Shown piece after piece: positions 6,830 to 59,279 of a DNA stretch of 64,000 bases. The DNA is from Styela clava. Taxonomy: Eukaryota. The stretch is from the NCBI RefSeq assembly GCF_964204865.1, contig NC_135264.1, forward strand, positions 4,464,001 to 4,528,000, in the 5' to 3' direction. Numbering within the stretch: the stretch's first letter is position 1; every line of letters begins with the position of its first letter. The position numbers and the translations under genes were made by a program. Under the pieces are notes generated by a model. It saw only the letters and a program-made list of their open reading frames with translations, ran no database searches and was not told where the DNA came from.

Positions 6830-8135
6830 TGAAAATATTGCAACAGCAGAAAAGCCATTCACAGAAGGCGAATTTGTAAAAAAGTGCTTATTACAGACTG
6901 CAAGTATACTCTGTCCAGTAAAGTCAGTTTAGCAATGTCATCCTTTCTGCCAACGGCAGAGCGTATTTCTGATCTGTCAAGTGACATTTATGATCAACTG
7001 TGTGAGAAAGCCAAATGTTTCAGTGCATACTCAGTTGCTCTCGATGAGACCATAGACATCACCGACACTACCCAGCTTGCAATTTATGTCCGTGTTGTTA
7101 ATGACAATTTTGAAGTGATGGAGAGGTTGCTCAGAGTAATTCCAATGCATGGCCAGTCCACCGCTCAGCAGATGTTTTGCCAGTTGTGTGAGGTCAATAA
7201 TAATGCCGGTTTGACATGGCGGATGTTTGCTGGGATAACAACCAATGGAGCACCATCAATTACAGAAAAAAATGGACTGGTGGCAAAACTGGGAGAGGAG
7301 GGTGTAGAGGAGGCCATTGCTCTCCACTGCATTATCCATCAGCAGTCCATTTGCAGCAAATGCCTGAAGTTTGACAATGGGATGTCTGTCGTTGTGAAAT
7401 GCATCAACAAATCAGATCCAGGGGCTTAAAACACCGAAGATTCCGTGCTTTTTTGCAGGATATTGAGTCAGAATATGGGGATGTACTCTACTTTTCTTGT
7501 AGATATCACATACAAGGTTAATGTCCGTAGTATGTCCACCAAGATGGCGAAAACTGGAACGTAGTATGTGTATCAGGTTAGGGTTAGGCCATAATTTTAT
7601 GTCAATTTACCTTATTTTAGTTCTAATACGAGTTTAGGGACTAGCCGAATGACTTTCATACTATTTGTACCTGAAATTATGGCCTAACCCTAACCAGGTA
7701 CACATGCTACGTTCCGGTGTCTGCCATCTTGGTGCACATACTACGGGAGTACCGTTACAAGGCCCTGAGCATGTGGGGGAATTCTCCACAAAACTAGTGT
7801 TATGGAAAGCCCAATATGCCCCAATATGCCCCTTCTGTGCTTGAAATGCAACTCATTGACTTACAGTGCAACTCTAAACTCAAAGCGAAATTCTGGGAGG
7901 TGAGTGGAAAAGTCGACAAGCTTGGGCAATTTTCGAGAGAATTGTTCTCCGGCTTTCCAGAATCTTCAAGCGGACTATGTGCCTTTTGGAAGCGCATACT
8001 TGCGTTTAAAGCTTTTCTCAATTTTAACACTTAACTAACTATTGAACATCTTCAATCCGTACTGTGGGTCTCAATTTCCTTCCCCCTCAAACCAAATATG
8101 TGGCTCTGCTATGCGACAGAAGGCGCTGCCAAGTA
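6830..8135 (+). pseudogene. hAT-Charlie/GTF2IRD2-like transposase pseudogene
   Basis: ORF 6884-7429 has YSVALDETIDITDTTQLAIYVR (first catalytic Asp), ITTNGAPSI (decayed TDGA) and LHCIIHQQ (CxxH). C-terminal fragment MQLIDLQCN at 7816-8034. Frameshifts and a MITE insertion. Confidence 0.85.
7517..7753. mobile_element. Merlin-like MITE with long inverted arms containing TTAGGG/CCCTAA, inserted in the transposase remnant
   Basis: Arms ccgtagtatgtccaccaagatggcg...caggttagggttaggccataattt and aaattatggcctaaccctaaccagg...catactacgggagtacc. Degenerate 8-bp flanks catacaag / gttacaag. Homologous to 28276-28468. Confidence 0.7.
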
Positions 8136-10889: not shown

Positions 10890-12646
10890 ATGAATAAGAA
10901 AACGGTATTGGCTATAGTTTTTGCAGTGATAATGATATTAATCGTCGTTGGTGTAATTATGATTGTTACAAGCCTAGTCTCAACAGTTACAACCAACTAC
11001 AAAAAGTTACAACTGCAACCAACTACAGAAAGTAAAGTATAAGACGTTTATCTGCAGCTATAATTCCTTCCCTAAGATACATACATAAACAAAAATCTAA
11101 AATATAGCATCAGTCGACCGAAGAGAAAATCACGCTTATGCTGTCAAGTGTCAATGCACTTAATTTTGAAAATTCTGCAAATTTTATTATAAAAGAAATT
11201 AGTATATAATAAATAAGATATCATAATATATTCAAACAATGATGATTATTGTTTTTACATGATCCTTCAATTTTAGAATCTGAAAAATAACCTTAGTTTT
11301 GCTGATTTGCACAGGCGAAATGAAGCTGATTTTGAGAAGACTAATCAATTCTATTTGATATTAATTGTTAAACAGATATTACTATTGAAATCATTTTATA
11401 TATGTTGCACAATTGATATATTTGATAACATTGACACAATTATTGATAACTATTTTTTCGATATTTATAGTACCTAAAAATGTATTTTTTTTTTCAGGCC
11501 CTGGAAGGGATGATTGGCATCACTTTTCAACTGGATCGTACAAGTTGTTTCCAACTGAGGTTAATTATGAAGCAGCAAAAAATGGTTGCAGAAATGCAAA
11601 TGCAAGATTGGTAACTGAGGGAATAAGAAATAAAGTCACCCGCAAGTGAGTTCATGTAATGAAACTTATTTCAACCAACCCTTATAATTTCATTCATTTG
11701 TTTATCATCATATTGCAAACGAATTAGATTGGAATACACAATTTCACCAATTGTTTTACGAACGTTTATTTCCGTTTTTTTGTTTTTTTTCTGCATCAAA
11801 TCTGACAAATTAGTTGAAGGAGGCTAAACTTGAGTAGACACATTTTTAAGACAAGCATAAAAATTACCATCAAATTACTGTTTATCAAATTGATAGAAAA
11901 TGTATCAAATTGTAAAATATTTAAATAAAATATTATGTAGCTATCATGTGCTTTGAATAACAACTTTTGGGGAATGCAAGAATCGTGACAAAGAAAAAAA
12001 AAGTCGTCAAAAACAGATCAGTCTGTAAGAACATGTCCTTTGTAGTAAGCAGTGTTATCAGTTTGTCATTATCACAAAGTCTATTATCCTAAAGAATGAT
12101 AAAGAAAGTAGAATGTCCTGTAAAAATTGACGACATTTTGACGATAGCTGGGCCGTTATAAATTTCATTTTTCAAGTCTACACTACATGCTACTTTGTAG
12201 TTTAATGTATATTGTTTTATGCTAATTTGAAATAATGAATTGCGATAAGCATTCTATATGAAATAATTTCAATGAGTTTCGGATCGATAATTCATAGAAG
12301 CTTGATTTTACCTTGAAAAAAGTACATAGTACCTCCAAAGGGATAATTAAGATCTTATCAATTTAGAAGCATTATGGATGAAATGATACTTCCCGCTTTT
12401 AATGCAAATAAACTTGGAGAAGGTTATGGAGTGTGGATAGGATTGGATGACCTGGAAGTAATCAACAAATGGAAATGGATCGACGGTATTGCGTCGACAA
12501 ATGATAACACTGCTTGGGCTCCCAGTGAACCAAATAATGGAAGTGAAAGATGTGGAATGCTGCATAAACTATTAAAATGGTTAATCAATGATGAGTATTG
12601 TTTGGTTGCCAATGCATATGTTTGCGAAATAGCAAAAAGTAAATGA
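10890..12646 (+). CDS. Type II transmembrane C-type lectin, copy 1 (189 aa, EPN motif)
   Basis: Exons 10890-11031, 11498-11645 and 12367-12646, GT-AG, phases 1 and 2 compatible. N-terminal signal-anchor (VLAIVFAVIMILIVVGVIMIV), short Thr-rich neck, CTLD with WIGL, W.W.DG, EPNN, IND and 4 Cys. Confidence 0.9.
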
Positions 12647-15197: not shown

Positions 15198-18003
15198 ATG
15201 AATAAGAAAACGGTATTGGGTATAGTTTTAGCAGTGATAATAATAATAATCGGCCTTGTTGTAATTATGATTGTTACAAGCCTAGTCTCAGCAGTTACAA
15301 CCAACTACGAAAATATAACATTGGAACCAACTACAGAAAGTAAAGTATAAGACGTTTATCTGTAGCTATATATTTTTATAAATTCCATACGTTTACAGGT
15401 CGGTTTGCTTACCATTCATTTTTTTATATCGCAATTGACAAATTTGCATTTTCTCTCCAGTGGCCGTTATGTTTTTAACTCTTTGTATAACATCAAAAGT
15501 AATATCCTCAATGTGCCTAAGAATTGATGACCTCATGATTGAATTTTTGTTAATCAGGATTTAATTTGGAAGTCATAAGATACATACATAAACAAAAATC
15601 TAAAATGAAGCATCGGTTGACCGAAGAGAAAATCACGCTTATGCTGTCAATGCACTTATTTTTAAAAATTCTGCAAATTTTATTATAAAATAAATTAGTA
15701 TATATATATATTAAATAAGATATCATAATAAATTCAAAAAAATGATGATTATTGTTTTTACATGATTAACCAATTTTAGTATTTGAAGAACAACTTTAAT
15801 TAATTTTACTGATTTGAACAGGCGAAATAAAACTGATTTTGAGGAGACTAACCAATTTCATTTGATATTAATTGATATTAAACAGTTTATTACTGTTGGA
15901 ATCATTCTATATATCGTCACGCTAATAACCGAATTGCGTAAGTCATTTTTAGCAGTTTTGAGAAAAACGTAAAAAACTTCCTAATGATATTGTTATGCCA
16001 TTGAGAGTCAATAATTTGTCATAATTCAATCTTATGATCATAGCCGGATTTAAGTTAATTTGTATGACGCAGTAAAGTGACGTCATAATGGCGCACTGTG
16101 ACTTAAGCACAAATTTGTCTATGACTTGGGGACATACGCAATTTTGCAACTTTACTATATGCACCAGTCCTGAAAACTAAAAATTTAAAAAAAAATGTAA
16201 TTCTCAATATCTGCAATGCTCAATCCCCAAAATAGCTAATTAGTTTCAATTACATTATTTTTTATGTTTAAAAATATATATTTCATCAATATAACACGTT
16301 CTGCACACCCACCGGAATAAGACTAAGATTAAATATAAAGAATAAAACAGCAATGCACCCAATATAAAAGCCAATCAAAATGAATTGGACTCGGACAGTG
16401 AATATCACAAGTGCACGCCTTCCTATACTGTAGTATAAATTCCAATTAATACGCGGCTAAGCTATAATCCGAAATGAAAAAACTCGAAAATAATTCGACG
16501 AGGGTATTTTGTATTTGTGACGTCATAATAGTCGTGTGGTAACAATGATAATTCATTATGACGAAACAATTGCACAAATGTGCATGTCATACTAAATCTC
16601 CATTTTAATGAGTACCGGAATTCTCAAAATAAAATCTGAGTTAACAGACAGGTGCGCAGCATCACTTGAATACCTATTTTATGAAAAACTCAAAATCACC
16701 AAAATTGACTTACGCAATTTGGTTATTAGCGTTACGATATGTTGCATATTCCATAATATTGATACAATTACTAATAACAATTTTTTCGATATTTATATTA
16801 CCTAAAAATGTATTTTTTTTCAGACACCAGGGGGGATGATTGGCATAAGTTTTCAAATGGATCGTACAAGTTGTTTCTGAGTCATGTTACTTATGAAGCA
16901 GCAAAAAAAGGTTGCAGGAATGTAAATGCAAGATTGGTAACTGAGGGAATAAGAAATGAAGTCACCCGCAAGTGAGTTCATGTAATGAAACTAATTTCAA
17001 CCAACGCTTATAATTTCATTCATTTGTTTATCATCATATCGCAAACGAATAAGATAGGTATAAACAATTTTACCAATTGTTTTACGAACGTTTTTTTCCA
17101 TTTTTTTTTTGTTCTGCATCAAGTCTGACAAATTATTTGAAGGAGGCTAAACTTCAGTAGACACATTTTCAAGACAAGCTCAATAATAACCATTAAGTTA
17201 TTGTTTATCAAATTGATAGAAAATGTATCGAAATGTAAAATATTTAAAAGAATTAGTATGTATGGTTATCATGCGCTTTGAATAACAACTTTTGTGTACT
17301 GCTGCAAGTCGAGAATCGTGAAAGTGAAAAATGAAAGTTTTCAAAAGCAAATCAGTCTGTAAAGGTATTGTAGTAAGCAGTTCTATCAGTTTATTGTTAT
17401 CACAAAGTCTATTATCCCATTTTGCTTCATTGCAATGAGTTGTTTAAGAATGTTAAAGAAAGTAGAATGTCCTGTAAAAATTGAAGACATTTTAACGGGA
17501 GCTTGGTCGTTAAAAATTTCATTTTTCAAGTCTACACTACATGCTACTTTGTAGTATAATTTATATTGTTTTATGCCAATTTGAAAAAATGAATTACGAT
17601 AAGCATCCTATATGAAATACTTTCAATAAGTTCCGGATCGATTATTCACTGGAGCTTGAATTTCCCTTGAAAAAGGTATATTGTGCCTTCAAAGAGATAG
17701 TTAAAATCATATCAATTTAGAAGCATTGTGGATGAAATGATACTTCCAGTTTTCAAAGCAAATAAACTTGGAGCTGTTTATGGAGTGTGGATAGGATTGG
17801 ATGACCAGCAAGAACCAATCAACACATGGAAATGGATTGATGGTATTGCATCGACAAATGATAACACTGCTTGGGCTCCTGGTGAACCAAGTAATTATCT
17901 CGAAAGATGTGGAATGCTGCATAAACTATTGAAGTGGTTAGTCATTGATCAGGATTGTTTGGCTACCAATGCATATATTTGCGAAATAGCAAAAAGTAAA
18001 TGA
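15198..18003 (+). CDS. Type II transmembrane C-type lectin, copy 2 (190 aa, divergent EPS/VID sugar site)
   Basis: Exons 15198-15339, 16824-16971 and 17721-18003. Intact frame. WIGLDDQQEP...WAPGEPSNYLERC...WLVIDQDC. Confidence 0.9.
15914..16737. mobile_element. Non-autonomous TIR element with ~32-bp TIRs and TA (or ATAT) duplication, in intron 1 of lectin copy 2
   Basis: tcgtcacgctaataaccgaattgcgtaagtca / tgacttacgcaatttggttattagcgttacga. Empty site ttttatatatgttgc in copies 1 and 3. Confidence 0.85.
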
Positions 18004-21664: not shown

Positions 21665-23657
21665 ATGAATAAAAAAACGGTATTTGGTATAGTTTTAGCA
21701 GTGATAATAATAATAATCGTCCTTGTTTTAATTATGATTGTTACAAGCCTAGTCTCAACAGTTACAACCAACTACAAAATGTTACAATTGCAACCAACTA
21801 CAGAAAGTAAAGTATAAAACGTTTATCAGTAGCTATATATTTTTATAAATTCCATACGTTTACAGGTCGGTTTGCTTACCATTCATTCTTTTACATCGCA
21901 ATTGACAAATTTGCATATTCTGTCCAGTGTCCGTTATGTTTTTAACTCTTTGTATAACATGTATGTTCTGTGTCATCAAAAGTCATATCCTCAATGTTCC
22001 TAAGAAATAGTAATCTTTTGATTGGATTTTTTTGAATCAGGATTTAATTTGGAAGTCATAAGATACATACATAAACAAAAATCTAAAATATAGCATCGGT
22101 TGACCGAAGAGAAAATCACGCTTATGCTGTCAATGCACTTACTTTTGAAAATTCTGCAAATTTTATAATAAAATAAATTAGTGTATAATAAATAAGATAT
22201 CATAATATTTTCAAACAATGATGATTATTGTTGTTACATGATTAATCAATTTTAGAATCTGAAAAATAACCTTAGTTTTACTGATTTGCACAGGCGAAAT
22301 AAAGCTGATTTTGAGAAGACTAATCAATTCCATTTGACATTAATTGTTAAACAGATATAACTGTTGGAATCATTTTATATATGTTGCACAATTAATATAT
22401 TTGATAATATTGAAACAATTATTAATAACAATTTTTTCGATATTTATATTACCTAAAAATGTATTTGTTTTTTCAGGCTCTGGATGGGATGATTGGCATC
22501 ACTTTTCAGCTGGATCGTACAAGTTGTTTCCAACTGAGGTTAATTATGAAGCAGCAAAAAATGGTTGCAGAAATGCAAATGCAAGATTGGTAACTGAAGG
22601 AATAAGGAATAAAGTCACCCGCAAGTGAGTTCATGTAATGAAACTAATTTCAACCAACTCTTATATTTTCATTCATTTGTTTATCATCATATTGCAAACG
22701 AATAAGATAGGAATACACAATTTCACCAATTGTTTTACGAACGTTTATTTCCGTTTTTTTTTTGTTCTGCATCAAATCTGACAAATTAGTTGAAGGAGGC
22801 TAAACTTGAGTAGACACATTTTCAAGACAAGCATAAGAATTACCATCAAATTATTGTTTATCAAATTGATAGAAAATATATCGAATTGTAAAATATTTAA
22901 ATAAAATATTATGTAGCTATTATGTGCTTTGAATAACACCTTTTGTGTAATGCTACAAGACGAGAATCGTGAAAATGAAAAATAAAAGTCGTCAAAAGCA
23001 AATCAGTCTGTAAGAACATGTCCTTTGTAGTAAGCAGTTCTATCTGTTTGTCGTTATCACAAAGTCTATTATCCCATTTTGCTTCATTGCAATGAGTTGT
23101 TTAAGAATGTTAAAGAAAGTAGAATGTCCTGTAAAACATGACGACATTTTAACGGTAGCTGGGCCGTTATAAATTTCATTTTTCAAGTCTACACTACATG
23201 CTACTTTGTAGTTTAATGTATATTGTTTTATGCTAATTTGAAATGATGAATTACGAGAAGCATTCTATATAAAATACTTTCAATGAGTTTCGGATCGATA
23301 ATTCATAGAAACTAGAATTTATCTTGAAAAAAGTACATTGTATCTTCAAAGGGATAATTACCATCTTATCAATTTAGAAGCATTATGGATGAAATGATAC
23401 TTCCCGCTTTTCACGCAAATAAACTTGGATCTGTTTATGGAGTGTGGATAGGATTGGATGACCTGGAAGTAATCAACAAATGGGAATGGATCGACGGTAT
23501 TGCGTCGACAAATGATAACACTGCTTGGGCTCCCAGTGAACCAAATAATGCAAGTGAAAGATGTGGAATGCTGCATAAACTATTAAAGTGGTTAATCAAT
23601 GATGAGTATTGTTTGGATGCCAATGCATATGTTTGCGAAATGGCAAAAAGTAAATGA
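21665..23657 (+). CDS. Type II transmembrane C-type lectin, copy 3 (189 aa, EPN motif)
   Basis: Exons 21665-21806, 22477-22624 and 23378-23657. Intact frame. EPNN/IND. Confidence 0.9.
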
Positions 23658-33100: not shown

Positions 33101-36100
33101 ATATTTTCACAAGATTGCTCGTTAACTCTGATTTGATCTCAAAATCAGTTTGCAATTCTAAGAAACAGTTTTGATGTTGAAATTGATAACTTTATGGATG
33201 AAATGGGAGCTAAATTTGTATGGGCTTAAATATTTAATTTGTTTCATCATCTTTTTAATTCTCACGATTCATTCCATATGTTTCATTACACTCAACTTCG
33301 AGTTACACAATTCATCTTTGTGTGTTCAAACAATGTACAAATAAAAATTTTGATATTATTAATTACTTTATGTAAATGTTTAATCTCTGCTTCTGCAGTA
33401 CAGCGCTGCCTCCGAAATACGAAAGAAATATGAGGCGTATGCCCCGACGAAAGAAAGTAGGGAAGATCCTTCCAAATTCAAGGTTTGTCAAGAGTATCAT
33501 GAAGTATGGACTTACCTGCTAGCATTGAGTCTGATACTGTACAAATCCCAATTTAGTACACATTTTCATTAGAGTATTTGATACAATGTTGTTAATGTTA
33601 CGTACCGTAATTGATTTATGTAATGATTTTATAGACATTGATAACAGTGTAGCTGCTTAATGTAATTTCTGTTTTAAATTGTTATTATGTTTATTCGAGA
33701 AAAGAATAACACCACTTAAAACATTCTTGAAAGTGGCTTAATCATGGCCAATTTTTCATTAATAGTGATGTTTGCTGTGAAATTCTCTGTGAAATAATAT
33801 AGTGTAACTTATATTTGAAATTAGTTTATTAGTTGGAGGAAATCAGGTTATTGGTTACAAATAAACAAAGCTGCAAATAAGCATCCCTAAAGTGAACCCC
33901 AATGGCTTCAGTTGAAGTATAGGAGAATTCAAAACAATCCATCAAATATATCTTCTATCTTCTTTATTTACTGCTTAAATCTTGCCTGAACAAAAATATG
34001 GATTAATCCATTCCATATAGTATTTCACAACAGCACTGATTTGCAAAAGAATCTGACAGAGTCTTATTTATATTTTGTAGAATCCTAACATAAATAAGTT
34101 TTTTTCGGAAATTGTAATTTGCAAGCCAATATCTAAGTAGAAACATAATTTACTTGTTATGAACTGGTGGTGGATTTATTTTGGTGAAAGGATTTCCTGC
34201 GTGTTTGTGGTTTTATTTTGATTGAATTTTTCCTTTTCGCATGGATTGTGTTGTGACGAACTCATTTATTTATTGTTTTGAAATATATTTCGAAATCTAT
34301 ATTAAATAATTCAAATAATCTTTCAAGGATATACCTATGAAAGTTTATCAATTCTATAATTCAGCTTAAAAACAATTTTCTGCCTTCTAGCCAATTGTTT
34401 GTGGCAGTGATTGCTGAGCATGTGACATACATGAATCATGCCTCAATGATTACTGTACCATACTTGGTATAGTTTCGCTAACCAAATTGCTGCAAACCAC
34501 TGGTGGGCATTTTAATCTGCTGAAACTAATGCAGCGGGTGATGGTATTTTTATTCAATATGTGTTGTCTTTTATGTTCAAATTTCCATGCTATTTTATTA
34601 CAGTTTACCAACCCAGAAACTGCTGGCTATGTTGGATTTGCAAATCTGCCAAACCAAGTACATAGGAAATCTGTGAAAAAGGGATTTGAATTCACTCTTA
34701 TGGTGGTTGGTAAGTCATTATCCATGAAGCAGACTATTTTGTTATTACAGAATCCTGCTTCATTAATCTTATTGGTTATTGCTTATTTTTTTTTTAATAA
34801 TATAACATTTGACATCCACCGTAGCAATAGTAAAATATTCTATAAAGAGAAGGAAATGGTCTGAACTTCAATTGAATTGCCATTGAAGTGCTAAGAGGAA
34901 ACAAGGCCTACTTCTACCAACATTAATATTGTCGTACTTATTAGTTACTCTCATTGAAATTTTTTGAGAGAGAGATTTAATTTCTAATTTTATCAAAGAG
35001 ATAGAGGCCCTACCTGATATTTTAAGAAATGCTGAAATATTGCTTAATCACATAGCTTTGAATAGAATGTTTCATTTTGGTCTTAAAGTGTATTCTACAA
35101 ACTAAAAGTACAAAGTAACTCTTAACTACTTTGTGCATGTAGTCGATTCAACGAAGCTGTATGCCTGTATCTAATGAATACAATTAAAATAAGTGAGTCT
35201 GTAAGAATATTATGTACGAAAGGAATCTTACAACAAAAAATTATTTTGAATTTAACTCGAAAAATATCATTATCTGCTGCACGTTTATTCCTAAATTTTA
35301 TTCGAAAATTATCTTCAACCTTGATTTCATCATTTTCAAATTTCATTGCTGTATATTGATTGCAACAAAATCAAATTCTACACCTGATATTGTTTGCTAG
35401 AGCTGATGTAAAATGAATTGCATTTTTTTTCCCAGGTGAATCTGGTCTGGGCAAATCAACTTTAGTGAACAGCCTTTTCTTGACTGATTTATATCCAGAG
35501 AGGACAATTCCTGCTGCTGCTGATAAAATCAATCAAACAGTCAAAATTGATGCAAGTACGGTTGAAATTGAAGAAAGGGGAGTCAAACTAAGACTGACAG
35601 TGGTAGACACTCCTGGATATGGGGATGCATTGGATTGTTCAGATTGGTAAAAATTAATTTCTATGTTTTCAGGATTAGGATTATTTGTTTTAAGTCTTGT
35701 TCAATGTCTGTGTAAATTAAAGCTTTCAATCAATCCCTAATTGGTGACGATGTGACAATTTCATTTTTTTGTCTGATTTATTCCAAAGGCTTTCATAGAC
35801 TCAGCAAGAATTGTTGAATTAATATTACAAATTGCACACAGTCACCATCAGACTAGTGATCTCCTCTTTTAATATCTTTATCATAACCTTTTTGTTAGAC
35901 TGAAACATTCAATAGAATTTCAGATTTATTTGATTCATATGTTAGCTATGTGTACATGATGGCGAACAATATTACGTTGTCCATTACCTAAAACAATGCA
36001 AATGTTCACTGTAAGTTCCTACTTTTACAGATAAACTGAAAGGTAATGCGGGAATATTTCTATCTTGGAAAACAATATGCCCTTTCTGTATACATTGAGT

Positions 36101-44492: not shown

Positions 44493-47113
44493 ATGAATAA
44501 GGTTGATGCACTACTTCGCACTCCGTTTTCGCAGCTGCCGCTGGAACAAAAATTAGAGGTACAACGTCTTGGGCCTTTTCAACCAAAAAATTGTTCACTG
44601 GAACAATCCCATGACGGAGGAAAGCGTCGGCGTACATTCTGCGCAGAAACTTGGTATAAAAAACACGAATGGTTGTGTTACAGCGAGGACAAAAATGCAC
44701 TTTTTTGTTTTTATTGCCTACTTTTTGCTACCGCCCGTGACTCACGTTGATGTAAATTTGGTTTTAGAGATCTTAAACATCTTTCCGAGCGTGCCAGGGA
44801 TCATCAATCTTCTATGGAGCATCTAGACCAGGGGTCGGGAACCTTTTTGGTCAAGAGAGCCCTAAAATATACATATTTTCAATTGCATTTCCGTGCGAGC
44901 CATATAACATTTCTTCACTTAATCAGGCCTGAAACGTTTACTCAAAAGTCAACACATTCCATGTCAATATACATTTAATGTGACTTCTGATGCTGCATGT
45001 TGTCGCTGCGGGCCTTGAACAGTTGCTCACATGCAGCCCAAGTTGAAATCTACGATACTCATCACCCTTTTTCGTTTAGGCATCTCCGTAGTATTTTAAA
45101 ATTCTATCGCTTTGTGATGTCACAATATATGTTCCAGAATCCCGATGTTTTGTCACAATGCCTGTCTGGTAATTCTCTTACATAACATAGACATGCGCTG
45201 GGCCCGCGTTGTCAAACGTATTAGGAATTTTTTGCCAAATTTGGCCATAAAATTGTTTGAATTCTAGCAACAATAAATAGTAAGCTTAATCTTAGAATAA
45301 TAGATTTTTCTGGGAGCCATATGCCGTCACCAAAAGAGCCATATATGGCTCGCGAGCCATGGGTTCCCGACCCCTGATCTAGACAATGCAGTAAAATACC
45401 GAACATTCGGAAATGTTAATATTGCAGCACAGTTGGATGAAGGACGCGCGGTTTCTATTCGTCGGCACAACCAAAACGTCGAGAAAAACCGCCATGTTTT
45501 CGGTCGATTGATAGATGTTTTGAAGTTCATTGGTTGTCACGAGACGGGCTGGCTCTTCTAATAGAGGGGTATTTTTGGATATGGTGGAATACACCGCATC
45601 CCTAGATACAGTATTGAAAGATCATCTTGGTGCCGCAACTTTTTCGAAAGGGACATCTAAGGATATCCAAAATGATTTGCTCGACTCAATGTATAAAATT
45701 TATTTACAACATTTGGCTCTGGAAATTGAGAATTGCCAGTTTCTTTCGATTCAGTCTGACGAGACAACTGACATCACGTGCATTTCCCAACTGGCTGTGA
45801 TTTTTCGGTTTGTGAAAGATGGTAAACCTACCGAGAGATTTCACAGCTTTGTACCAATCCTTGATCGCACGGCTTGCGGGATATCGGCTGTACTGAAAGA
45901 AGTGTTACAGCCTTACAACGCGAAGTCAAAATTGATAGCTCAAACTTATGACGGCGCGGCAGTCATGAGTGGGTCGAAACATGGTGTTCAAGTTTATATA
46001 AGAGAAGATTTTCCTCATGCGCATTTTTTACATTGTTATGCACACCAATTTAACCTCGTTATTAAAAATATGTGTCTTGATACCCTTCTCGTCCGTATAT
46101 TTTTTGCAAATTTTTCGGGGTTTTCTTCATTTTTTTCCGTTTCGCCAAAGCGCTCTGACCTCCTTCGCCAGATATGTAGCCGCCGTCTCCCAGCTTGTGC
46201 ACCAACACGTTGGAACTTCCAATCACGCGTGGTGCAGGGCGTGTCCGAAATTAGGTCTGAGCTCATTGAGTGTTTCAATGGCATTCAGAGCTCTCCGGTT
46301 TGGGACGAACGCTCTGTGAGGGAGGCGACAGGTCTAAAGCGTCTGCTAGAAGATGGTGAGTTTTCATTTTTTCTCGCTTTTTTCTCCACAATATTCTATC
46401 ACGTGGATGTATTATACGGCACATTGCAGTCAAGGCTAATAGATGGAGCGTCTGTGCAGTCGTGTATTTCAGACTTCTGCGTTGCTGTATCTCGTATCCG
46501 GGAAACAATAAAATACGACGACACATGGAGTGCTTCTTTACGCCGCGGGCAAACAACGCAGCGTTTGATTTTGTCTGCAGAGGAATGCTGTGACATTCTG
46601 GTGAATCAAATAGGCGATCGTCTGCGCACTGAACACCTTGCCGCGTTCTCTTTGATGAACCCCAAAAATTTTTCAAAATTTGCACGTCAATTTCCCATCC
46701 ATTTGTTGGCTACTGTCTTCAAATTTTACCCCATGATAAACGTGGGTAAATTGGGAATTGAATTGCGATGTATATACACCAATCAAACTTTTTTGAACAT
46801 CACATCAACTTGCGCGCTCTATGGGTTCCTCATAGATAACACTCTAGTAACTACCTTTGCGGCGTCTGCAAAATTTCTGGACATCATTTTGACGACGCCT
46901 ATTTCTTCCGCCGACGCAGAGCGAACATTCAGCACGCTGAAGCGTATTAAAACGTATCTCAGAAACACAATGAAGCAAGATAGATTAAATTCCTTGGCTG
47001 TTTTATTCATTCACAGAGACGTTATTTCTGGGATGCATGACTTCAATCAGCGCGTTATTGAGCATTTTGCTTCCAAGAAACCGCGGCGTGTTGCATATAT
47101 GTTCAAGCAGTAG
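44493..47113 (+). pseudogene. hAT transposase (TTF-type Zn finger, DDE, C-terminal dimerisation domain), disrupted
   Basis: WLCYS..LFCFYCLLF zinc finger, SIQSDETTDI, QTYDGAAVMSG, HCYAH, TRW, SADAERTFSTLKRIKTYLRNTM. Three lesions: TGA at 44748, MITE at 44829-45376, frameshift near 45545 where the expected RGHDE segment is missing. Confidence 0.92.
44829..45376. mobile_element. 548-bp Charlie-type MITE inserted in the transposase ORF
   Basis: Perfect 15-bp TIRs caggggtcgggaacc and perfect TSD atctagac. Removing it rejoins MEHLD|NAVKYRTF in frame. Confidence 0.95.
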
Positions 47114-54723: not shown

Positions 54724-57700
54724 ATGGAGCCACGTACCTTGGTCATAACATTAACAATCGCATTATTCAAATTAGGATATTCATCATCACAATATACTTC
54801 TCCCCCGTTCCACAGGACGTTTTCTGATGCTTGCATTTCAGCGGGCATAAAAGATGAAAATGCTTGTCCGCGAATCGCTGGCAAAAGTCAGTGGTCAAAG
54901 GAAAAACGAACTTCTGAAAGTGACACGAGGTTTAAACCAACTAACCCTAGGAAATGTTTTTCAAAAGTATTAGTGTCAACCCAAAAGTGTAACGCAAAAC
55001 CAGAATGTGTAATGACAGCTTACAAATACTCACTTCCAAACAGAGGTCGTTCAGCTGGAAAAAGCAATCCTTCTCATTGCATAAAAGACTGGTCTATCGA
55101 AAGTACATGTAAGGCAAATGGACCAGGTGGAAAAAATACCAGAACTACATATTTTAATTGTTTTAGAAAAGGAGCGAGGAATTTTTGTGGAGTCAAATTT
55201 GAGAATTGTAAACCGGTTCCTTGTTTTACTTGGACTGGTTATAAGAGGCAATGTTTCATGGAATGTAAGACGCCAAAATTCACTGGGATTGCGATGCATT
55301 TTGTAAGAAATTGTAAAGAATGTGGCGGGGATATAACAAATAATACTAATTGTTCTGGGGGAGAGGAAGCAGCAACAAGGTTAGGGCGATGCATTGTGAG
55401 ATCAAAGGCAAGAGCTAGAGCGCCAGATTGTGTTTTAGACACGACAACTGCAATTGTAACCACGGCTCAACCGGAAACAACAAGGGGCATCACTACCGCT
55501 AAGATAACAAAATTAACAACCACCACAATTCAAACTAGTCCGCATACCACATATGGGAGGACCATCACAACACCAGAAACTTTCAGAACATCTACTGCTA
55601 TAAAGAAATTGGATGCGACAACAAGTCATACCACAAAAGCAAAAATAACAACTGGACCAAATAACCACATAAAAACAAAGCCCACCAAAACCGTTCTTAG
55701 CACAACAAAACAGGACAAAACTGAACCGACTACAACAACTTCAAAATCCACAACTACTAAACAAACCACAGGTTTTACAAAATCAACTGCGACAATTACC
55801 ACTACCTCCACAACTATAGTACCAGACTATATATCAGTGAGCTCTACAAAGTCAATTGTAAGAGCTACAACAACAAATCCTCGAACTACATCTTTAAATT
55901 TTAACCAGGAGGAATCCACAGCTATTGTAGCTGCAATACCTGGTGGTCAATCAGGTCACGATGATAATCCTTTCAACTTGGTAACCATAGCTGGCGGTGC
56001 TGGTGCTGGCATCATATTTATTGTGTTGATAGCAATCATAATATTTCTGTTGATGAAAAGAGACACTAAAACGCCGCCCGGACCGGCTTATAGCTCATCT
56101 TCGTTGTATAGATCACGAAGTGGTAGAAATCCCGTTGTTGATAGTTCTTCATTTCGCATTGCCACTTGGATTAGAGAAAGGCCAGCATTACCGAACAGAA
56201 GCCGAACGTCATCTGATTCGGTGAGTTATTAGATAGGCATGATAAATATTTCAGTTTTAGGTAATTTTTTCATGTAAGAATAGTAATTTAAATAAGTAAA
56301 CAATTATATAATACTTTATGTTTCACTTACTTTGCTTGGCAATTACTGTGATTGTTTGAAAATTATATCCGCAAACAGAATTTTGTTAAATTTATATGCA
56401 GCCTAATGCCTTTGTTAGTACATATTGTAACATTCGTTCGTTCAATTTTATACGAAGAAGCAAACGAATAACAACTTCACTAGGACTCAAGACTATTCAA
56501 TAATGTATATAAGTGAAGGCGGTCAATACTAATGGCAATGCAATTCACGAAGTACTAGAAATGCCAAATGATTAAATCGTGACGTAGAAAATCATTATAT
56601 ATACAATAGCGAATAGGTACATCTGAGCCTACATTTATTGTATTGTAAAATATAAGGTTTTATTGGTGCGTGATGTTAGTTACAATGTCACAATGCTATT
56701 TATTTAATTAAATTTCTAAAATCTTAGCCGTGTGAGGCGACCATGGACCAAGATCAATGCTTATTGAAAATGCATATGCTAGAATTCGTTCTTTGTACTC
56801 TGTCAGAACTTGCCAAATACGTTCTCCCGAATTAAAATAGATTATTTCGTCGGCTTTACAAAATAGGAAACACAAAATCGATTAGTAAACGTCAATGTTG
56901 TTAGAATCGACCCTATTCTAGTTTCCAAATGGTTTCTGCGGGATGGTGTACATTTGAATTCACTTTAATTTCTCACTTTAGGGGGTGTCTGACGCTGAAT
57001 ATTGGAAAATTGGAGAATCATCAGAAGAAAAAATAGCAACACCCAATAAATCACAAACATCTATAGTCCCAGATATTGTGAAAATTATTCAAGTCGAAGG
57101 GGAAGGTACTATCATTTATTTCTAAATATGCAAGAATTTTAGTTTCAACATGACGACTTACAAAAACAGACAAACTGATATTTAAATGATATTAGAACTG
57201 TTTAGTCACATGTAATAAATTCAGAATTTAAAAAATATGAATTTCATTTTGCAGTGTACAAAATGAAAAAAAAAAATAACTACTACAAAGTATCTATCAC
57301 TGCTTTAATATATATTAGCATGGCGATTCTGGAAAAATTTTTAATGGTAAATATCAGAATTGTTTTGGCAACTATTATTTCAGAAGCATGATCTAAGTTA
57401 ATTTTGAAAGTTGCACTATATATTTAAATATTTTCCTAATAAATTCTCATATTTTCAGAGCACATTTACGATGAAGTATCCTTTGGTATGGTGCAAGACG
57501 ACATGCAAAAGTTTGTACCGATTACTCGAGACAGTCCATTTAAAAATAGTCGAACATCAGCCAAAAGCACTCATAGCGAACCGGCGGAAACGTCAACATC
57601 TCGTGAACAGGAATGGCCAAGGAGTGAAAGCGCGGTATATGCAGTTGTACGCAAAACGCGTAAGAGAAATGCGAATTCTACGAAGAAAAGTCCCTCCGAA

Positions 57701-57892
57701 GCTGGAGATGGAGACTTTAGGCGAAGAGTCGCCTCAGAACATTCCGCCAGTATTACTAGATTAAATGGACGACACCTTCGAGAAGGGGTTTTGCAAATTG
57801 AATTTGATGAGAAAGAAGGCCTGCGATGTAGATTATCAAACTCTAATGTTTATATGAATTTTGAAGAGACGGAACCTCCTCCGGTTATATAG
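54724..57892 (+). CDS. Uncharacterised type I membrane receptor (~684 aa): signal peptide, 18-Cys domain, Thr-rich stalk, TM helix, Tyr-motif tail
   Basis: Exons 54724-56220 (tcg|gtgagt), 56982-57105 (tttag|...gaag|gtact) and 57459-57892 (tttcag|), phases 0 and 1, joining into the 57488-57892 ORF frame. TM IAGGAGAGIIFIVLIAIIIFLLM followed by KR. Confidence 0.85.
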
Positions 57893-59279
57893 CGAAATAG
57901 TTTCTCTCACCGTAAAGCGACGTATTCACCTACGGGCGTACTCGACAGCGTATGATTTGATTAATTAATTTGATTATGATTCATGAATAAAATAGTTCTA
58001 CAATTGTTTTAGTTGTGTAAATATATATCAGTTGTTTGCGTAGTTGTTGTTCTTTACCTAATAAAATTAAATTATTTTTTCAAGATTTAACTTTTGGTGG
58101 ATGCCTTAAAATGATACAAAGACTATATATAAAAGATAGCAGAATAAATGTACAGTTAAGATTGAGATTGGGAGAGTTGATGAAAAATATAATTATGTAA
58201 ATAATTAGATTAATTAGTAGTTGGCCTGATCGGTACAAGTGCTGTTTTGGTTTATACGCTATCATCCTACCGACTGATGCCAAATTAACTGATAAAGCAA
58301 AGACGCGATTACGCAAGTCTCAATCATGCAATACAGATGGTACTTTACATTCACACTTTGCGCAAAAGAAATTTGGAAATTACGGTAAACAGTGTACGTG
58401 AACGTACACCAACTTCTACTTACCTGAACCAACGCTTTTATACCGATAAAATACATTTTAAACGTATGAAATATGATTGCGCAACATTCATCGAGGTTAT
58501 TAAACAATATTGACACAGTCGATCATGTCATTCTGCGAGATAAATTGAATGATTATTACAAAAACGAATAGAACTGTACAATATTAACTAAACGACCACA
58601 ATTACTTACAGTCTGTAGCCTACCTTCAGTTATTTTTTGATCATGACTTGATTCTATGTTCACATCACTACTCAAAGTTTCTACGGCGTCTTAGTCAAGG
58701 AGAATGTCACTGAAACCTTAGTTCAGAGGTCATTAAAGATAATTTGTGACCTTTTCACCATTATGTGACTTTTTGTAGTGACCCAAAATCGCAATTGATA
58801 TTAACCAAACATTCTTCTACCAATGAATATTTATGTGGGTAGTTTATGCCATTTTCTGTACGTTTATATCGTTCGTAAAATACCTGCAATAAACACTCTT
58901 TCTACTCTTTTTACTTTCTGAAAGTTATTTCGACTTCAAACTATCGCATAAACTAAGATTAGTATTAAGAATTATCGAAACATTTTGTAGTGAAATCGTC
59001 AACTGCGGTTGTTGCGCATTCTCCACAGAATGTCTTCATTTTCTTCTGCAAAGTTTCTTTAATACGCATGCGATGCATTGCAGATGAAGCACGATCAGAT
59101 TTGTTCCTCGGTCCGACTTAGCAATGATTAGAAATGTAATAACTCCCCACTTTGAAAATTCCTGTCTAAGCCCCGGCAAGATATTCGGGAGTGTTACAAA
59201 TGTCTAATAAAAACTTTGCGCATTTTCTCCTATAAAGTCAGCTTGTTAACGCTACATCTGCAAAAAAGTACCCTGAACT

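What the first reader, a model, noticed from the sequence alone, without database searches (positions are those of the whole stretch)
57096..57484. Splice junction builds EEHIYDEV, identical to the EPEC Tir Nck-recruiting motif
Seen: exon 2 end (gaa g) plus exon 3 start (ag cac att tac gat gaa gta) encodes EGEEHIYDEVSF. Known: enteropathogenic E. coli Tir uses EEHIpYDEVAADP (Y474) to bind Nck SH2 and drive N-WASP/Arp2/3 actin assembly, and nephrin uses YDxV similarly. Inference: a convergent optimal Nck site, predicting that clustering of this receptor nucleates actin.
Basis: partly seen in the sequence, partly recalled or inferred. Interest (0 to 1): 0.7.

Follow-up and report, generated by a model that had tools for sequence, protein, structure and literature searches.

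The report
Sea-squirt receptor with Nck-type docking motif
A spliced sea-squirt membrane-receptor gene does encode the same eight amino acids that E. coli Tir uses to grab the actin adaptor Nck, and a related protein keeps the core of the motif, so it likely is a real docking site, but such short sites recur in many unrelated proteins and the exact match is probably ordinary convergence.

Summary
The junction is real. Assembled contigs from 6 of 7 RNA-like runs (3 studies) join 57105 to 57459, giving EEHIYDEV at residues 540-547 of a 684-aa single-pass protein, identical to a record named Styela clava LOC120334074. The 8/8 identity to Tir holds. The surprise is smaller than claimed. Only one Glu plus one base come from exon 2; HIYDEV lies wholly in exon 3, and no alternative splice was seen. 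The one homologue covering the site keeps Y-D-x-V but only 4 of 8 residues. An unrelated ORF of the same genome matches Tir 8/8 too (EHIYDEVA), and nephrin and vaccinia A36 carry near-copies. The genome encodes Nck and N-WASP, so a phospho-Tyr544-Nck-actin link is plausible (about 50%) but untested; the site is monovalent, and three other tail blocks are better conserved. The ectodomain has a weakly thrombospondin-repeat-like module and a Thr-rich stalk. Verdict: a new, uncharacterised receptor carrying a known motif class.

The parts
54724..56220 (+). Exon 1 (coding): likely signal peptide, Cys-rich ectodomain, Thr-rich stalk, transmembrane helix, start of tail (aa 1-499)
   Evidence: covered by contigs of X1, X5, X6; signal peptide by inspection only
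54832..55431 (+). Cys-rich ectodomain, 18 Cys (aa 37-236), no Pfam family
   Evidence: 80 of 215 identical to P0003 over aa 22-236
55207..55431 (+). Last Cys module (aa 162-236), predicted thrombospondin-type-1-like fold
   Evidence: AlphaFold2 pLDDT 85.6, pTM 0.64; best structural match THSD7A Z 4.4, rmsd 5.9, 70 aligned; 5 of top 8 rows are TSR entries; Foldseek no hit at E<=0.001
55432..55968 (+). Thr/Ser-rich mucin-like stalk (aa 237-415), variable in length among homologues
55987..56058 (+). Single transmembrane helix (about aa 422-445) with G425-x-x-x-G429
   Evidence: only hydrophobic 19-residue peak above 1.6, maximum 3.12
56122..56196 (+). Most conserved tail block (aa 467-491), partner unknown
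   Evidence: 23 of 25 identical to P0003; also kept in P0002, P0004
56221..56981 (+). Intron 1, 761 nt, GT..AG, phase 0
   Evidence: joint in X1, X5; exon-1 loose ends in X2-X4
56982..57105 (+). Exon 2 (aa 500-541), with conserved Tyr506 block (aa 500-511)
   Evidence: 10 of 12 identical to P0003
57106..57458 (+). Intron 2, 353 nt, GT..AG, phase 1, splits codon E541
   Evidence: joint in 6 of 7 RNA-guess runs laid
57102..57478 (+). EEHIYDEV motif (aa 540-547): 57102-57105 plus 57459-57478; Tyr544 = 57467-57469
   Evidence: homologue has QENVYDDV at the aligned place
57459..57892 (+). Exon 3 (coding, to TAG stop), aa 541-684
   Evidence: homologue P0003 ends at the aligned position
57758..57853 (+). 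Conserved C-terminal block (aa 641-672) ending in Tyr672 (YxN here)
   Evidence: 20 of 32 identical to P0003; also in P0006
57893..58111 (+). 3' untranslated region, AATAAA at 57986 and 58060
   Evidence: longest contig ends 58062, 58067, 58111; contigs cannot fix the true end

Best explanation
This is a three-exon, single-copy ascidian gene for a 684-aa protein with one predicted membrane helix, whose tail carries one conserved Y-D-x-V site that likely binds the Nck SH2 domain once phosphorylated and would thereby link the clustered receptor to N-WASP/Arp2/3 actin assembly. Shown: gene structure, splicing, motif, retention of the core in a homologue, Nck and N-WASP genes in the genome. Inferred: topology; a TSP1-like head on a mucin stalk binds a matrix or cell-surface ligand; clustering (perhaps helped by the GxxxG helix) lets a Src/Abl-type kinase phosphorylate Tyr544; Nck docks and recruits WIP/N-WASP or PAK. 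The identity to Tir is convergence on a shared SH2/kinase preference, not shared ancestry, and Tyr544 is one of several conserved tail elements.
For: Junction in 6 of 7 RNA-guess runs. Tyr544 is the only Y[DE]x[VP] in the tail, and Tyr432 the only one in P0003's tail, at the aligned place; shuffling P0003's tail 200,000 times gave YD[DE]V within 10 residues of that place in 0.07% and Y[DE]x[VP] in 1.2%; flanks are only 9 of 27 and 9 of 49 identical, so keeping Y, D and V by descent alone is roughly 1-4% (my arithmetic). One allele's tail differences are 8 synonymous to 2 replacement codons, against 3 to 9 in the stalk (38 of 41 exon differences of run X5). Nck orthologue: SH3-SH3-SH3-SH2 on G000 C8, best PDB hits Nck1/Nck2 (E 4e-18 and 8e-19); N-WASP WH1 exon (E 2e-11). 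A clustered 12-residue Tir phosphopeptide suffices for actin assembly (PMC2172230); Tir motif Kd 40 nM, nephrin 370 nM (PMC4238058).
Against: No phosphorylation, binding or cell data. Conservation rests on one homologue of unknown species; it keeps 4 of 8 residues, and 4 of the 6 tail tyrosines are kept anyway. Three other tail blocks are better conserved (23/25, 10/12, 20/32). The motif class is not enriched over a Tyr-to-Phe control in the genome (17 vs 13). Singly phosphorylated nephrin did not cluster with Nck/N-WASP in vitro, and this tail has one site. SH2 domains cross-react widely (PMC7145657; PMC3593179). The TSP1-like call is weak (Z 4.4).
Confidence: 0.5

Rival explanations
1. Tyr544 is a real phosphosite but mainly serves another SH2 protein (a Src-family kinase, SHP2, RasGAP, Csk), giving kinase-feedback or inhibitory signalling rather than actin nucleation.
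For: Acidic-x-I/V-Y-D/E-E/D-V also fits Src-family substrate and SH2 preferences (recalled); EPIYA-type peptides, among which Tir's EHIYD is counted, bind many SH2 proteins (PMC3593179); the genome has at least 50 SH2 exon matches.
Against: Asp at +1 and Val at +3 are the kept residues, which is the Nck consensus; no ITIM or hemITAM pattern in either tail.
Confidence: 0.25
2. The receptor signals mainly through its better-conserved blocks (aa 467-491, Tyr506, aa 641-672); YDEV is an accessory or drifting motif and the Tir match is coincidence.
For: Block identities 23/25, 10/12, 20/32 versus 4/8; Tyr and Phe versions of the pattern are about equally frequent in the genome; several hits lie in very short ORFs or in a 753-aa ORF with no sign of being a receptor.
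Against: Y, D and V are kept amid 18-33% identical flanks.
Confidence: 0.23
3. The motif is a regulated module switched in or out by alternative splicing, or was acquired from a bacterial or viral effector.
For: An in-frame AG at 57476 would remove the tyrosine while keeping the rest of the tail; the Atlas listed poxvirus A36 among feature neighbours of the tail at 0.77.
Against: All 6 spliced contigs use 57459 and no other joint is listed (contigs drop rare forms); 0.77 is within the range shuffled proteins reach; an intron interrupts the motif; the whole-library search returned only 6 proteins, all aligned through the ectodomain, stalk or tail of this receptor type; no Tir Pfam domain.
Confidence: 0.02

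Closest known systems
EPEC Tir (pY474 Nck site)
   Same: 8 of 8 residues around the tyrosine; motif in a cytoplasmic tail behind a membrane helix; one such site
   Different: No homology elsewhere; Tir is a bacterial effector with two membrane helices and an intimin-binding loop (PMC3593179); this is an intron-containing host gene with one predicted helix; residues +4 onward differ
Nephrin (three YDxV sites; Y1176 context HLYDEV, PMC4238058)
   Same: Chordate single-pass receptor with HxYDEV in its tail, the host precedent for the motif
   Different: Nephrin has Ig/FN3 domains (recalled) and three sites; this has a Cys-rich/mucin ectodomain and one site
Vaccinia A36 (pY112 TEHIYDSV, Nck; downstream Grb2 site)
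   Same: Near-identical Nck site, followed here by a YxN tyrosine (Tyr672)
   Different: Sites about 20 residues apart in A36 (PMC9333988), 128 here; YxN is absent in P0003, present in P0006
TSR-bearing single-pass proteins (THSD7A, semaphorin-5A, UNC5)
   Same: Best though weak structural matches of the last Cys module; single-pass architecture
   Different: No Pfam TSP1 hit, Z at most 4.4, no sequence homology found; repeats degenerate
Botryllus fester co-receptors (FcoR, PMC11507803)
   Same: Ascidian type I proteins of similar size with tyrosine motifs
   Different: FcoR are a polymorphic multigene family with ITIM/hemITAM; this gene is single-copy with neither pattern

Membership tests
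Nck SH2 ligand motif (ELM LIG_SH2_NCK_1 class) | pY-D/E-x-V/P consensus | tested here: met
   YDEV at 544-547; consensus from PMC8187788; the ELM regular expression itself was not seen
Nck SH2 ligand motif (ELM LIG_SH2_NCK_1 class) | Cytoplasmic, accessible position | tested here: met
   About 100 residues after the only hydrophobic helix; topology predicted, not measured
Nck SH2 ligand motif (ELM LIG_SH2_NCK_1 class) | Conserved in homologues | tested here: met
   1 of 1 homologue covering the site keeps Y-D-x-V; the other 4 hits do not cover it
Nck SH2 ligand motif (ELM LIG_SH2_NCK_1 class) | Nck present in the organism | tested here: met
   G000 C8 8.858-8.873 Mb, best hits Nck1/Nck2
Nck SH2 ligand motif (ELM LIG_SH2_NCK_1 class) | Tyrosine is phosphorylated and binds Nck SH2 | not testable with these tools
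   Needs phosphoproteomics and binding assay
Tir effector family | Homology beyond the motif; two membrane helices with intimin-binding domain | tested here: not met
   One helix; no Tir Pfam hit; only 6 library hits, none named or shaped like Tir
Nephrin family | Ig-domain ectodomain (recalled) and three YDxV sites | tested here: not met
   No Ig Pfam hit; one YDxV
Thrombospondin type 1 repeat proteins | Three-stranded TSR fold | tested here: inconclusive
   THSD7A Z 4.4 rmsd 5.9 over 70; Sema5A Z 3.0; TSP-1 Z 2.9, 2.9, 2.7; tied with unrelated folds below rank 1; Foldseek none
Thrombospondin type 1 repeat proteins | Pfam TSP1-family match / WxxW ladder (recalled) | tested here: not met
   No family at E<=10; one invariant Trp in the module
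Fester co-receptor / ITIM-hemITAM receptors | ITIM or hemITAM pattern; multigene family | tested here: not met
   No pattern match (patterns from PMC11507803); one genomic match each for ectodomain and exon 3 (counts are lower bounds)

The most novel reading that the evidence does not exclude
Probability: 0.12. Interest if true: 0.6.

Novelty: new member of a known kind. Interest (0 to 1): 0.3.

Why it matters
If Tyr544 recruits Nck, this orphan receptor gives a testable handle on how ascidian cells couple adhesion to actin, and one more case of host and pathogen converging on the same SH2 ligand. The convergence itself is already known from Tir, A36, reovirus p14 and nephrin, so the match is not surprising to a specialist. 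The more unexplained features are the two strongly conserved tail blocks and the degenerate Cys-rich head.

Tried and rejected
Alternative splice choices: 44 donor-acceptor pairs translated, 2 keep YDEV, only 57105>57459 seen in contigs. Stop read-through or frameshift after TAG 57890 (the frame continues to a DSV end, another frame begins YSEI): rejected, P0003 ends at the aligned place and no indel is listed in the contigs. Paralogue search by alignment in the own genome was not accepted by the tool; single-protein searches gave one match each. More orthologue tails: search of shorter proteins found none among 73 candidates. Atlas: no usable hit for the ectodomain, chance-level hits for the tail. 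PDB sequence search with the family profile hit only transmembrane segments, E>=0.03. Whole-ectodomain model was mediocre (pLDDT 66), Foldseek empty. First Nck candidates L022 and L011 were not Nck by best hit. PBD search returned PAK-like and CRIB exons, not WASP (names recalled). Earlier-findings look-ups were empty. Paper search for LOC120334074 found 0 papers; listings showed no title on this gene.

Full report
Observation. The finding lies in a three-exon gene on the + strand: exon 1 54724-56220, exon 2 56982-57105, exon 3 57459-57892, both introns GT..AG. The spliced product is 684 aa and reads EGEEHIYDEVSF with Tyr at 544. A database protein of the same sequence is named uncharacterized protein LOC120334074 of Styela clava, an ascidian. 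Of 12 runs listed, 8 were laid: contigs of 6 of the 7 RNA-guess runs, from 3 studies, skip exactly the 353-nt intron; X7 laid nothing; X9 reads through both introns. One low-depth X5 contig reads intron 2 unspliced. No other joint and no indel in the coding region was listed; contigs drop rare forms, so minor isoforms are not excluded. The Tir sequence around Y474 was read in a table of PMC13516693 and a passage of PMC9333988: 8 of 8 identical.

What the junction contributes. Only E540 and the first base of E541 come from exon 2; HIYDEV is encoded within exon 3. Of 44 donor-acceptor pairs tried, 2 keep YDEV, and an in-frame AG at 57476 would drop the tyrosine, but it is not seen in use. 'Splicing builds the motif' is therefore true only trivially.

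The protein. Hydropathy gives one membrane helix at about aa 422-445; a signal peptide is inferred by inspection. Before the helix lie an 18-Cys region (aa 37-236) and a Thr-rich stalk; after it a 239-aa tail. No Pfam family passes. The last Cys module folds confidently alone (pLDDT 85.6). Its best match among 48,161 chains is a THSD7A thrombospondin didomain (Z 4.4, rmsd 5.9, 70 aligned), and 5 of the top 8 rows are TSR entries, but Z values are low and tied with unrelated folds, and Foldseek found nothing (the whole-ectodomain model gave the same top hit at Z 4.1). I read it as a degenerate TSP1-like module, weakly supported. The gene gave one match per query in its genome. A search of 1.84 billion representatives returned 6 proteins including itself; only P0003 (560 aa, about 40% identical, source unnamed) covers the whole tail. 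P0002 and P0004 stop matching at the position of intron 1, which suggests a shared intron (inference).

Is the motif selected? P0003 has QENVYDDV at the aligned place: Y, D and V kept, 4 of 8 overall, between flanks 9 of 27 and 9 of 49 identical. It is the only Y[DE]x[VP] in either tail. In 200,000 shuffles of P0003's tail YD[DE]V fell within 10 residues of that place in 0.07%; that test ignores common descent, and cubing the flank identity gives about 1-4%. In one allele (38 of 41 exon differences of run X5) the tail has 8 synonymous and 2 replacement codons, the stalk 3 and 9. Against: it is one homologue; 4 of 6 tail tyrosines are kept; and blocks aa 467-491 (23/25), 500-511 (10/12) and 641-672 (20/32) are better conserved than the motif. 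Tyr601 (VYAVV) is not kept; Tyr672 is, but its YxN is present in P0006 and absent in P0003.

Is the Tir identity special? A naive calculation makes the 8-mer rare (about 5e-4 per 1e7 residues, assumed frequencies). But a genome scan for codons of E[HN][IV]Y[DE][DE][IV] (GTG codons not covered) gave 17 places, this gene included, against 13 for the Tyr-to-Phe control, 3 for the reversed pattern and 5.3 expected from base composition; several of the 17 are duplicates or short ORFs, and the control hits were not inspected. One hit, in an unrelated 1485-aa ORF on C8, reads KEHIYDEVAG, also 8 of 8 with Tir; another predicted membrane protein has REHIYEEI. For codons of exact EHIYDEV, 2 places were seen against 0.13 expected, which fits repeated selection of this ligand, while the class as a whole is not enriched. 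Vaccinia A36 has TEHIYDSV (PMC9333988) and human nephrin HLYDEV (PMC4238058). The match is thus convergence on a known short motif; transfer is not supported, since an intron splits the motif and nothing else resembles Tir.

Mechanism. The genome encodes Nck (three SH3 and one SH2 on C8; best solved-structure hits Nck1 and Nck2, with the KHFKV and IGQRKF stretches identical) and an N-WASP WH1 exon. The Nck consensus is pY-D/E-x-V/P (PMC8187788). A clustered 12-residue Tir phosphopeptide is enough for actin assembly (PMC2172230), and the Tir motif binds Nck SH2 at 40 nM versus 370 nM for nephrin, but singly phosphorylated nephrin did not cluster in vitro. The likeliest model (0.5): ligand-driven clustering, Src/Abl-type phosphorylation of Tyr544, Nck docking, local actin assembly through N-WASP or PAK. 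Every step after the sequence is inferred. Rivals: another SH2 partner (0.25; promiscuity in PMC3593179 and PMC7145657), an accessory or drifting motif (0.23), splice switch or transfer (0.02).

Comparison and novelty. It likely works like nephrin, Tir and A36 at this one site but belongs to none of those families, nor to the Botryllus FcoR family (PMC11507803). A full-text search for the locus name found no paper. Papers were seen as search listings plus found passages (abstract passages for PMC2172230, PMC3593179, PMC2999339, PMC11507803); none was read whole, no supplements were opened, and Frese 2006 is cited only through these papers. Verdict: observation confirmed, interpretation partly supported, new member of a known kind, interest 0.3.

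Noticed in passing
window 56122-56196 and 57758-57853 (+): Two tail blocks far better conserved than the Nck motif (23/25 and 20/32 with P0003; the second also in P0006), matching no Pfam family; partners unknown.
   Followed up: partly
L052 / G000:C8 about 17.096-17.100 Mb (-): Unrelated ORF of at least 1485 aa without Pfam hit (895 aa scanned) holding KEHIYDEVAG (8/8 with Tir) plus several other acidic tyrosine motifs (YEEI twice, ENIYDDP): looks like an SH2 docking scaffold.
   Followed up: partly
L041 (G000:C3:18281035, -): Another predicted single-pass protein whose tail has REHIYEEI and further tyrosine motifs.
   Followed up: no
window 57476: In-frame AG 18 nt downstream of the used acceptor would delete the motif's tyrosine and keep the rest of the tail; not seen in contigs.
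   Followed up: partly
window 57890-57970: After the TAG the same frame runs 20 codons to a DSV end and another frame begins YSEI; judged untranslated because the homologue ends at the TAG position.
   Followed up: yes
window 12347-12643, 17701-18000, 23358-23654 (+): Three closely similar C-type lectin exons in tandem (Pfam Lectin_C for the one scanned).
   Followed up: no
window 34418-35647 (+): Septin-like GTPase exons (name recalled from the P-loop motifs).
   Followed up: no
window 45524-47113 (+) and 6833-7429 (+): Open 529-aa hAT-family transposase-like ORF (DUF4371, hAT dimerisation domain) and a shorter related ORF.
   Followed up: no
L033-L034 (G000:C8 8.858-8.873 Mb, -) and L060 (C8:9353139, -): Nck orthologue and an N-WASP WH1 exon.
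   Followed up: yes
L037-L039 (G000:C1 27.53-27.65 Mb): Three paralogous short ORFs sharing SENIYEEI; not identified.
   Followed up: no
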